A stretch of DNA of 64,000 bases from Eledone cirrhosa (lineage: Eukaryota). A model generated the notes under the pieces. It worked only from the letters and a program-made list of their open reading frames with translations. It was not told the origin of the DNA and did not search any database. Positions 3,923 to 4,555 of the stretch are shown here, piece after piece; within the stretch, counting starts at the first letter, position 1, and the number at the start of each line of letters is the position of its first letter. The DNA is taken from contig OZ024753.1 of NCBI GenBank assembly GCA_964016885.1, positions 8,060,001-8,124,000 of the forward strand, read 5' to 3'. Position numbers and translations under genes: made by a program.

Positions 3923-3982
3923 ATTCTATTATATATATTTCAAGGGTACCAACATTTTGGTACGCTATCATCAGATAAAATA
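3923..3982 (-). ncRNA. Type I hammerhead ribozyme, inverted copy
   Basis: Reverse complement of 4073-4133 (tcatcag 3968-3974, tttc 3938-3941); U-U mismatch at the base of stem II. Confidence 0.7.
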
Positions 3983-4072
3983 TGAAGTGTATTTTATAAA
4001 TTTTGACATAACCAAGGAGAATATACCTTACTGGTTCACGTTATCTCTGGATAATTTATAAAACACACTTTG

Positions 4073-4133
4073 TATTTTATCTGATGAAAGCGTACCAAAA
4101 TTTTGGTACCCTTGAAATATATATAATAGAATA
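4073..4133 (+). ncRNA. Type I hammerhead ribozyme, structurally complete
   Basis: Stem I UAUUUUAU/AUAGAAUA; CUGAUGA 4081-4087; stem II aagcgtaccaaaa/ttttggtaccctt; GAAA 4114-4117; palindromic stem III AUAUAUAU; predicted cleavage after 4125. Confidence 0.8.
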
Positions 4134-4555
4134 AATATGGTTTTATAAATATAGTTTTCCTTTATTTAATATCATTGTATATTATACTCCAGAAATCTCT
4201 TGAGTGCTCTGAATCAAATATAAACATTTATATGGAGCAATGTTAAATGAAGTGTTTTGCTCTCTCTCTATATATATTCTGCTACCTTAAGATTGATGGC
4301 ACCACTTACTCTCAGTATTTTATTCATGATCTGTTGTTTTGAAAATAATTGAATCAGTACTTTGTTGTTGTTGTTGTTTTCTTATCCCTGAATATTTCCA
4401 TTTCAAACTTTGATCCTTTCTTTTCTTCACTATGCTATGTCTACAATAGGGATTGCAATATTTGTCTTCAGAGCTTCTGTTACAGTTTTTGTAGTGGGGG
4501 AAGCGGACTTAATTATAAATACTGTACCTGTATATTATTATTATTATTAGCTCAT

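What the first reader, a model, noticed from the sequence alone, without database searches (positions are those of the whole stretch)
3923..4225. Second hammerhead fold-back family with the same stem I but unrelated stem II
Seen: identical 5' stem I (tattttat) and core to the 55-kb element, but a different stem II and a different palindromic stem III (AUAUAUAU versus AUGCGCAU). Structure conserved while sequence changes argues for a real ribozyme rather than chance. A stem III made of TA repeats could easily be masked as microsatellite. A third stem II variant of this family is at 29204-29260.
Basis: partly seen in the sequence, partly recalled or inferred. Interest (0 to 1): 0.75.

Follow-up and report, generated by a model that had tools for sequence, protein, structure and literature searches.

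The report
Penelope retrotransposon end with hammerhead ribozyme
This is a broken, back-to-back copy of the tail end of a Penelope-type jumping gene that carries a likely self-cutting RNA motif; about 65,000 similar motifs lie in this genome, and both the motif and the jumping-gene group are already known kinds.

Summary
The hammerhead at 4073-4133 is real (0 strict matches in 200 shuffles), and a second one lies on the minus strand at 3923-3982. The fold-back is a head-to-head pair of 5'-truncated 3' ends (pseudo-LTRs) of a Penelope-like retrotransposon. In longer copies the same sequence lies about 1.2 kb behind a gene for a telomerase-like reverse transcriptase and a GIY-YIG-type endonuclease with the Hydra-clade motifs. 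The 4-kb, 29-kb and 55-kb elements are sister subfamilies; their stem II is homologous, not unrelated: it pairs in register with compensatory changes around one invariant unpaired C. The 29.2-kb copy is a damaged junction with no complete ribozyme. A core pattern matches 65,635 times (control 0). Arms end at two fixed sites about 85 nt apart, 12 of 15 fold-backs having one of each, as expected from two reverse-transcription start sites. Under 1% of arms begin at the cleavage site, so templates were uncut RNA. Cleavage and expression are untested. Hammerheads in Hydra elements and inverted insertions are published; this scan reached the same reading on other DNA of this genome. New families of a known kind; modest interest.

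The parts
3923..4052 (-). Left (inverted) arm: 5'-truncated pseudo-LTR copy, element positions about -77 to +51 from C3; begins at the family's 5' hotspot and has lost about 50 nt at its outer end
3923..3982 (-). Second hammerhead: C3 at 3974, H17 at 3930, 7-bp stem I, U.U at the first stem II pair (a common variant in the family)
   Evidence: sequence
4053..4232 (+). Right arm: pseudo-LTR copy from -28 to +152; lacks the last about 37 nt of the usual end (+189)
4073..4133 (+). Type I hammerhead: stem I 4073-4080/4126-4133, CUGAUGA 4081-4087, stem II 4088-4113 with unpaired C4091, GAAA 4114-4117, palindromic stem III 4117-4124, predicted cut after A4125
4054..4150 (+). Predicted outer extension of stem I (about 4054-4064 with 4140-4150) beyond an internal loop; seen in this subfamily group, not shown for the 55-kb family
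4178..4232 (+). Start of the 'tail' between the two fixed 3' ends; the inner end is the TA-rich site 4178-4186, followed by a small hairpin 4185-4206 (weak on its own, z = -0.3)
4233..4262 (+). 30-nt piece of another abundant repeat that replaces the end of the tail; not part of the element
29050..29204 (-). Left arm of a related insertion, +29 to +186 (carries the tail; lacks the 5' half of the ribozyme)
29205..29272 (+). Right arm of that insertion, starting at U4: no C3, no 5' strand of stem I, distal stem II broken; not a complete ribozyme
54885..55292 (.). Sister family fold-back: left arm -69 to +97 (minus), right arm -53 to +186 (plus), hammerheads with C3 at 54982 (-) and 55103 (+), in (TA)n

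Best explanation
The locus is a truncated, head-to-head insertion of the 3' end (pseudo-LTR) of a Penelope-like retrotransposon with Hydra-clade protein motifs, likely made when the element's enzyme nicked both strands of an AT-rich site and copied uncut element RNA twice, from two start sites about 85 nt apart. The two copies were likely joined at their truncated ends. The hammerhead is the element's pseudo-LTR ribozyme; it is predicted to work only as a dimer through its 8-nt palindromic stem III, and it has been kept by selection in active lineages, likely to process tandem transcripts at a step other than insertion. This copy is likely inert. Shown: ribozyme fold and covariation, link to the RT-endonuclease gene, two fixed 3' ends, (TA)n targets, arms that run through the cut site. 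Inferred: two priming events, dimer-dependent cleavage, the role of cleavage, and that the 5' hotspot near -78 is a transcription start.
For: Link to gene: 32 of 45 loci found by the endonuclease peptide alone have this ribozyme region downstream on the same strand, mostly 1.1-1.4 kb away. pLTR-leader-ATG arrangement: 25 of 30 loci found by the ORF N-terminus have a direct pLTR piece ending about 55 nt before the ATG. Full pLTR-ORF-pLTR unit for the 29-kb-type subfamily, 3,676 nt between ribozymes (L298); intact 800-aa ORF for the 55-kb family, 50% identical to the 4-kb family's ORF (L143); five stem II types are linked to the ORF. Motifs RW[R/T], DKT, YRDD, CxCx5C, CxxC, CxH match the Hydra description (PMC8557442 section 11). 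AlphaFold model (pLDDT 85.7) matches RTs, best telomerase Z 15.4, rmsd 5.7, 250 aligned. Two fixed 3' ends: +99-105 and +184-189 in family A, +97-100 and +185-186 in family B (29 of 30 unbiased B arms), followed by (TA)n; 12 of 15 unbiased A fold-backs have one long and one short arm. This fits the in vitro result that a Penelope enzyme cuts and extends both strands and starts at two internal RNA sites that bound the tail (PMC11167929). Uncut template: 230 of 18,470 family-B arms differ at the base next to the cut, and 18 of the first 30 of these are true breaks, so about 0.75%. Monomeric stem III is unfavourable by 3-4 kcal/mol, the 8-bp intermolecular duplex favourable (-3.2 and -10.5).
Against: No cleavage assay. 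The first stem II pair is A-U, G-U, U.U or A.C, and G-C in only 2 of 16 representatives (U.U is the majority among the endonuclease-anchored copies), whereas G10.1-C11.1 is reported as highly conserved (PMC4209133). Stem I shows no change on both sides. The two arms carry the same subfamily allele in 47 of 50 fold-backs (counted by eye), so one cDNA copied back on itself or later gene conversion is not excluded by sequence. This copy itself lacks both canonical outer ends and (TA)n flanks. 13 of 45 endonuclease loci had no ribozyme within reach. No tree with reference Hydra RTs was built; Pfam gave no hit; the endonuclease fold was not matched separately. The repeat unit (3.7 kb) is longer than the under 3 kb given for Hydra.
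Confidence: 0.85

Rival explanations
1. Same element, but the hammerhead fold is kept mainly as a structural or dimerisation signal and rarely or never cuts: the palindromic stem III pairs two RNAs so that both strands of a (TA)n site are primed at once.
For: Over 99% of family-B arms do not begin at the cut site. Stem III stays self-complementary in 14 of 16 representatives while its sequence changes. The window's two arms differ at two non-CpG subfamily-diagnostic sites, as if from two templates. In vitro, ribozyme mutants do not change insertion in another Penelope element (PMC11167929).
Against: All catalytic core positions and H17 are kept across lineages 40-50% diverged in protein (the patterns required the core, but the endonuclease-anchored set also has it as majority), which argues for selection on catalysis. 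Arms are concordant in 47 of 50 fold-backs; discordance (6%) is close to the background difference between arms (2.7%). Naiad elements form inverted insertions without a canonical hammerhead (PMC8557442).
Confidence: 0.12
2. The fold-back comes from one reverse-transcription event followed by snap-back of the cDNA, or from later DNA-level duplication (MITE-like palindrome).
For: Arms share alleles and private changes; many junctions are near-palindromic.
Against: Each arm holds sequence that the other lacks: here the left arm has -77 to -29 and the right arm +52 to +152; both outer ends fall on two fixed element sites rather than mirroring each other; inner lengths vary from tens of bases to kilobases and include the ORF; no fixed terminal inverted repeats.
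Confidence: 0.07
3. A non-autonomous retrozyme or hammerhead SINE with its own circular RNA cycle that only borrows Penelope enzymes.
For: Very high copy number and a preferred short unit from about -78 (A) or -69 (B) to the tail end.
Against: No head-to-tail short tandem units at the three window loci or in the loci examined; the sequence is continuous with the 3' UTR and ORF; unit ends do not coincide with the cut site.
Confidence: 0.05
4. This particular copy has been recruited by the host as a functional ribozyme.
For: The + strand motif is intact.
Against: Its arms are 5-6% diverged from family copies and eroded at both ends; a transcript through both arms is predicted to form a long hairpin that sequesters the ribozyme (-119.9 kcal/mol).
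Confidence: 0.02

Closest known systems
Hydra clade of Penelope-like elements, including Hydra-1_Obim of Octopus bimaculoides (Craig et al. 2021, PMC8557442; sections 11 and 15, passages, and supplement rows read)
   Same: Single ORF with RT and C-terminal endonuclease; RW, DKT, CxCx5C, CxxC and CxH motifs; (TA)n targets; hammerhead near the 3' end; inverted 5'-truncated copy and one-sided tail described for Penelope-like elements in general.
   Different: Different family: the Hydra-1_Obim ribozyme has another stem I, core CUGAAGA plus an extra base, and a 4-bp stem III with a 1-nt loop (supplement File S2); protein similar only by eye (not aligned). Unit about 3.7 kb with a 1.1-1.2 kb 3' UTR; tail about 85 nt against 30-40; the paper reports few Hydra families, whereas here there are many subfamilies and tens of thousands of copies.
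Minimal type I hammerheads of Penelope-like elements (Cervera and de la Pena 2014, PMC4209133, parts 1-2 of 4 read; Lunse et al. as summarised in PMC6765202, passages; the original was not held)
   Same: Type I topology, located in the pseudo-LTR, palindromic stem III, predicted dimer, many subfamilies with covarying stems in one genome, pairs on opposite strands 100-700 bp apart.
   Different: Stem I 8 bp instead of 4-5; stem III an 8-nt full palindrome; no fixed G10.1-C11.1; an invariant unpaired C at the fourth position of stem II; 65,635 matches against about 9,000 in Xenopus tropicalis (axolotl has up to 120,000 retrozyme copies, PMC7229834, passages).
Poseidon element PAc of Anolis carolinensis (Frangieh et al. 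2024, PMC11167929; main text read)
   Same: Two reverse-transcription start sites bounding the tail; both DNA strands cut and extended; AT-rich targets; uncut RNA as the dominant template.
   Different: Other clade; here both start sites are followed by TA/AT-rich template sequence that resembles the target, while PAc starts without homology; the ATG lies about 245 nt after C3, not inside the ribozyme.
Metazoan non-LTR retrozymes (PMC7229834, passages; preprint 10.64898/2026.07.22.740005, part 1 of 5)
   Same: Type I hammerhead, high copy number, link to Penelope-like elements.
   Different: Retrozymes are short head-to-tail tandem units without an ORF; these are dispersed inverted ends of an ORF-bearing element.

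Membership tests
Type I hammerhead ribozyme | Core C3 U4 G5 A6 N7 G8 A9, G12 A13 A14, A15.1-U16.1, H17 | tested here: met
   CUGAUGA 4081-4087, GAAA 4114-4117, U4124, A4125
Type I hammerhead ribozyme | Helices I and II flank the core, with open ends in helix I, supported by covariation | tested here: met
   stem II 103 of 112 cells paired in register against 31-58% when slid; stem I varies on one side only
Type I hammerhead ribozyme | Helix III stable in the monomer | tested here: not met
   closing 1-2 bp costs 3-4 kcal/mol; an 8-bp intermolecular duplex is possible, as in dimeric hammerheads
Type I hammerhead ribozyme | Site-specific self-cleavage after H17 | not testable with these tools
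   needs an in vitro assay
Type I hammerhead ribozyme | Tertiary contact between helices I and II | not tested
   the invariant unpaired C in stem II is a candidate only
Penelope minimal hammerhead (Cervera 2014) | Lies in the pseudo-LTR of a Penelope-like element | tested here: met
Penelope minimal hammerhead (Cervera 2014) | Palindromic positions 15.2-16.2 and loop 3 | tested here: met
Penelope minimal hammerhead (Cervera 2014) | Extra nucleotide between 9 and 10.1 and conserved G10.1-C11.1 | tested here: not met
   in-register pairing works without an extra base; first pair G-C in 2 of 16
Hydra clade of Penelope-like elements | Single ORF, telomerase-like RT followed by C-terminal endonuclease | tested here: met
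   GIY-YIG-type motif pair read from the sequence (LIY...YFG)
Hydra clade of Penelope-like elements | RWK-type motif, DKT, CxCx5C linker, CxxC and CxH around the conserved E and N | tested here: met
   against PMC8557442 section 11; third residue of RWK is R, T or C here
Hydra clade of Penelope-like elements | CCHH motif absent from the endonuclease | tested here: inconclusive
   not seen by eye; no alignment to canonical Penelope endonucleases was made
Hydra clade of Penelope-like elements | Insertion into (TA)n; canonical hammerhead present | tested here: met
   (family level; this copy has lost its flanks)
Hydra clade of Penelope-like elements | Groups with reference Hydra RTs in a phylogeny | not tested
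   reference sequences were only seen in the paper's supplement
Non-LTR retrozymes | Short head-to-tail tandem units, no ORF | tested here: not met
MITE / DNA transposon | Fixed terminal inverted repeats at both ends | tested here: not met
   two different fixed outer ends, variable inner junction

The most novel reading that the evidence does not exclude
These elements carry a distinct hammerhead variant (8-bp stem I, 8-nt palindromic stem III, invariant unpaired C in stem II) whose main job is to pair two uncut element RNAs, so that the enzyme primes both strands of a symmetric (TA)n site from two templates and writes the long-plus-short fold-back; the window copy, whose arms carry different subfamily alleles, would be a trace of two templates.
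Probability: 0.12. Interest if true: 0.65.

Novelty: new member of a known kind. Interest (0 to 1): 0.3.

Why it matters
The kind of element and its ribozyme are known, so the locus itself is ordinary. What the family adds: a natural set of many subfamilies with clean covariation for a Penelope hammerhead variant; one of the larger hammerhead counts for a genome; intact ORFs of the little-studied Hydra type; and genome-wide support, in a second clade, for the in vitro picture that Penelope enzymes start at two internal sites and use uncut RNA. The role of these ribozymes and the origin of inverted insertions are stated open questions (PMC8557442), and this family offers material to test them.

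Tried and rejected
Rfam: whole-window scan gave microsatellite-driven miRNA matches among the 150 listed; the local scan gave no hammerhead model at E <= 10. Pfam: no significant hit for the ORFs. PDB by sequence profile: none. Single-sequence fold was useless (pLDDT 31); the endonuclease domain was not folded alone, so no GIY-YIG fold match was listed. Sequencing runs: no RNA holder listed; contigs of four coded runs show the family elsewhere but nothing on expression. Testing core against flank decay in single copies does not separate function from neutrality. Two-template test: arms mostly share alleles (13 of 298 diagnostic sites discordant in B, 21 of 116 in A, random pairs about 45%; these sets include two duplicated loci and, for B, loci picked for likeness to the window), so it does not decide. 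An 'extra base' register for stem II was rejected because it fails in the GGAC subfamilies (by eye). No run of A-to-G changes between the window's arms. No ORF of the element elsewhere in the window. No host gene was identified. Five single-member clusters were left out (one mis-parsed match, four damaged or redundant copies); 16 representatives were chosen by hand. Literature: seven searches listed no paper on hammerhead numbers or these families in an octopus genome beyond Craig et al.; subscription papers and Repbase/Dfam were not searchable, and the supplements of the 2014 paper were not read.

Full report
Observation. The + strand at 4073-4133 reads as a type I hammerhead: stem I 8 bp, CUGAUGA 4081-4087, stem II 4088-4113, GAAA, palindromic AUAUAUAU, H17 = A4125. 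Only this motif and the two 55-kb motifs pass a descriptor scan of the window; 200 shuffles give 0.02 loose and 0 strict matches on average. 4053-4150 folds at -20.3 kcal/mol, z = -4.1. The left arm (3923-4052, minus strand) holds a second hammerhead with a U.U first pair in stem II; the apparent 50-nt loop is element sequence, so the arms abut at 4052/4053. At 29.2 kb the junction removes C3 and the 5' strand of stem I from the right arm, and the left arm starts inside stem II; neither arm is a whole ribozyme.

A large family. The window lies in a 3.0-Gb genome; 4040-4230 drew 1,730 candidates, the best 40 at 94-96% identity. A pattern for stem I, core and stem III matches 65,635 times, reversed control 0 (arms are counted singly). 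A looser pattern that leaves stems I and III free gives 60,837 (control 104; some cores counted twice), and nearly all of the first 100 listed have a stem III of the form AURYRYAU (by eye). That the genome is of an octopus is recalled from its SINE sequences and stated in earlier scan notes; it was not tested.

What the copies are. Copies share a fixed 3' end followed by (TA)n and vary at the 5' end. Walking upstream in two longer copies reached the end of an ORF. That 94-aa peptide drew 48,716 candidates; 32 of 45 distinct loci found by it carry the ribozyme region downstream on the same strand. The ORF has an RT with YRDD, followed by a CxCx5C linker and an endonuclease-like end. A model from 121 sequences (pLDDT 85.7) matches reverse transcriptases, with telomerase first by VIA-align (Z 15.4). 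The 55-kb family has an intact 800-aa ORF, 50% identical, laid out as (TA)n - inverted arm - ORF - 3' UTR - ribozyme - tail - (TA)n (L143). The 29-kb-type subfamily has a pLTR-ORF-pLTR unit of 3,676 nt (L298), and two more stem II types lie beside ORFs. In 25 of 30 loci found by the N-terminus a direct piece of the same 3' end lies about 55 nt before the ATG: the pseudo-LTR arrangement. The motifs RW[R/T/C], DKT, CxCx5C, CxxC, CxH and (TA)n targeting are those given for the Hydra clade (PMC8557442 section 11). The published Hydra-1_Obim has a different ribozyme.

Covariation. 150 distinct motifs from the loci held at that point fell into 25 clusters. Counted from the invariant core, stem II pairs in register: 103 of 112 cells paired, 31-58% when slid by 1-3. 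On a MAFFT alignment of 16 hand-picked representatives, 94.8% of cells pair, with 26 cells changed on both sides (0 of 500 shuffles); 5 of 6 stem II pairs and 1 of 4 stem III pairs change on both sides; stem I varies on one side only. These are counts of related sequences, not independent events. The fourth base of stem II is C in all 16 and never paired (C.C 11, C.U 4, C.A 1). Flanks of the 4-kb and 55-kb motifs agree at 6 of 20 and 15 of 40 positions without gaps. So stem II is homologous, and selection on the fold acted between lineages. Within family-A copies the core differs from the majority at 11 of 348 bases, the 3' flank at 84 of 1,710: single copies decay. Against canonical activity: the first stem II pair is G-C in only 2 of 16.

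How the fold-back likely arose. Outer ends fall at two sites: about +105 and +189 from C3 in family A, about +97-100 and +186 in family B. Of 15 family-A fold-backs taken in genome order from 633, 12 have one long and one short arm, 2 are short-short and 1 is eroded. The natural template runs on past both sites with TA/AT-rich sequence, so copying starts inside the RNA. This matches Frangieh et al. (PMC11167929): two internal start sites bounding the tail, both strands cut and extended, uncut RNA as main template. In family B, 18,470 arms carry the sequence 3' of the cut; 230 differ at the next base and 18 of the first 30 are true breaks, about 0.75%. Breaks seem more frequent at the foot of stem II (by eye). 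5' ends cluster at -77 to -82 in A (12 of 30 arms) and -69/-70 in B (8 of 30); a transcription start in the pseudo-LTR is the simplest reading (promoters in pLTRs: PMC6765202), but only 4 of 25 ORF-anchored pLTRs start at -80 to -86, and it is untested. Arms share the allele at one diagnostic site in 47 of 50 fold-backs (by eye), so both usually come from one source locus. The window's arms differ at three of five diagnostic sites, one explained by CpG decay: a weak hint of two templates.

Ribozyme function. Closing stem III in one molecule costs 3-4 kcal/mol; the palindrome pairs between molecules. Penelope hammerheads are reported to cut weakly, as dimers or with protein help. A transcript across this fold-back is predicted to form one long hairpin that hides the motif. 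This copy has lost about 50 nt on the left and about 37 nt on the right, where a piece of another repeat follows. It is most likely inert.

Novelty. Hammerheads in Penelope pseudo-LTRs, opposite-strand pairs and many covarying subfamilies per genome are in PMC4209133; Hydra elements, one from Octopus, in PMC8557442. Seven searches listed nothing on these families, their number or the unpaired C. My reading was set before the look-up of earlier scan notes; two of them report the same Hydra assignment and long-plus-short ends on other DNA of this genome, which is no independent support. Verdict: new families of a known kind; interest 0.3.

Noticed in passing
family-wide; window 4091 and 55113: The fourth base of stem II is an invariant unpaired C in all 16 subfamily representatives; candidate tertiary contact not seen in the papers read.
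   Followed up: partly
family B, just 5' of GAAA; window 29204: Truncation points pile up at the foot of stem II and after the stem III palindrome rather than at the cut site, as if the RT stalls on the folded ribozyme (by eye from 100 rows).
   Followed up: partly
window 4185-4206 and 55210-55235: Both families start their tail with ACUCCAG...GAGU, able to form a small hairpin next to the inner start site; weak by z-score; possible RT recognition signal.
   Followed up: partly
L079:about 1093 (-), L259, L267, L273, L279: Some inverted junctions fall inside the tail upstream of the ORF, and several ORF-leading pLTRs start 3' of the cut site (+47, +53, +64); not clustered enough to call.
   Followed up: no
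window 29290-29350; also L018, L020, L030 flanks: A different repeat with its own CUGA...GAAA-like, GC-rich hairpin (mostly on the opposite strand) sits next to (TA)n beside these elements; may be the end of another Penelope-like family.
   Followed up: no
window 15831-16461 and 49471-50057: Tandem arrays of a 190-205 nt SINE-like repeat that also inserts into these elements at AUAAU-like sites (L009, L015, L148); name recalled only.
   Followed up: no
L091:1800-1940 and L111:1800-3075: 5'-truncated ORF pieces of other Hydra-type families inserted in the (TA)n directly behind a family-B tail, making false tandem units.
   Followed up: no
window 63283-64000: 177-nt tandem array with a 269-codon open frame (63192-63998); not examined.
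   Followed up: no
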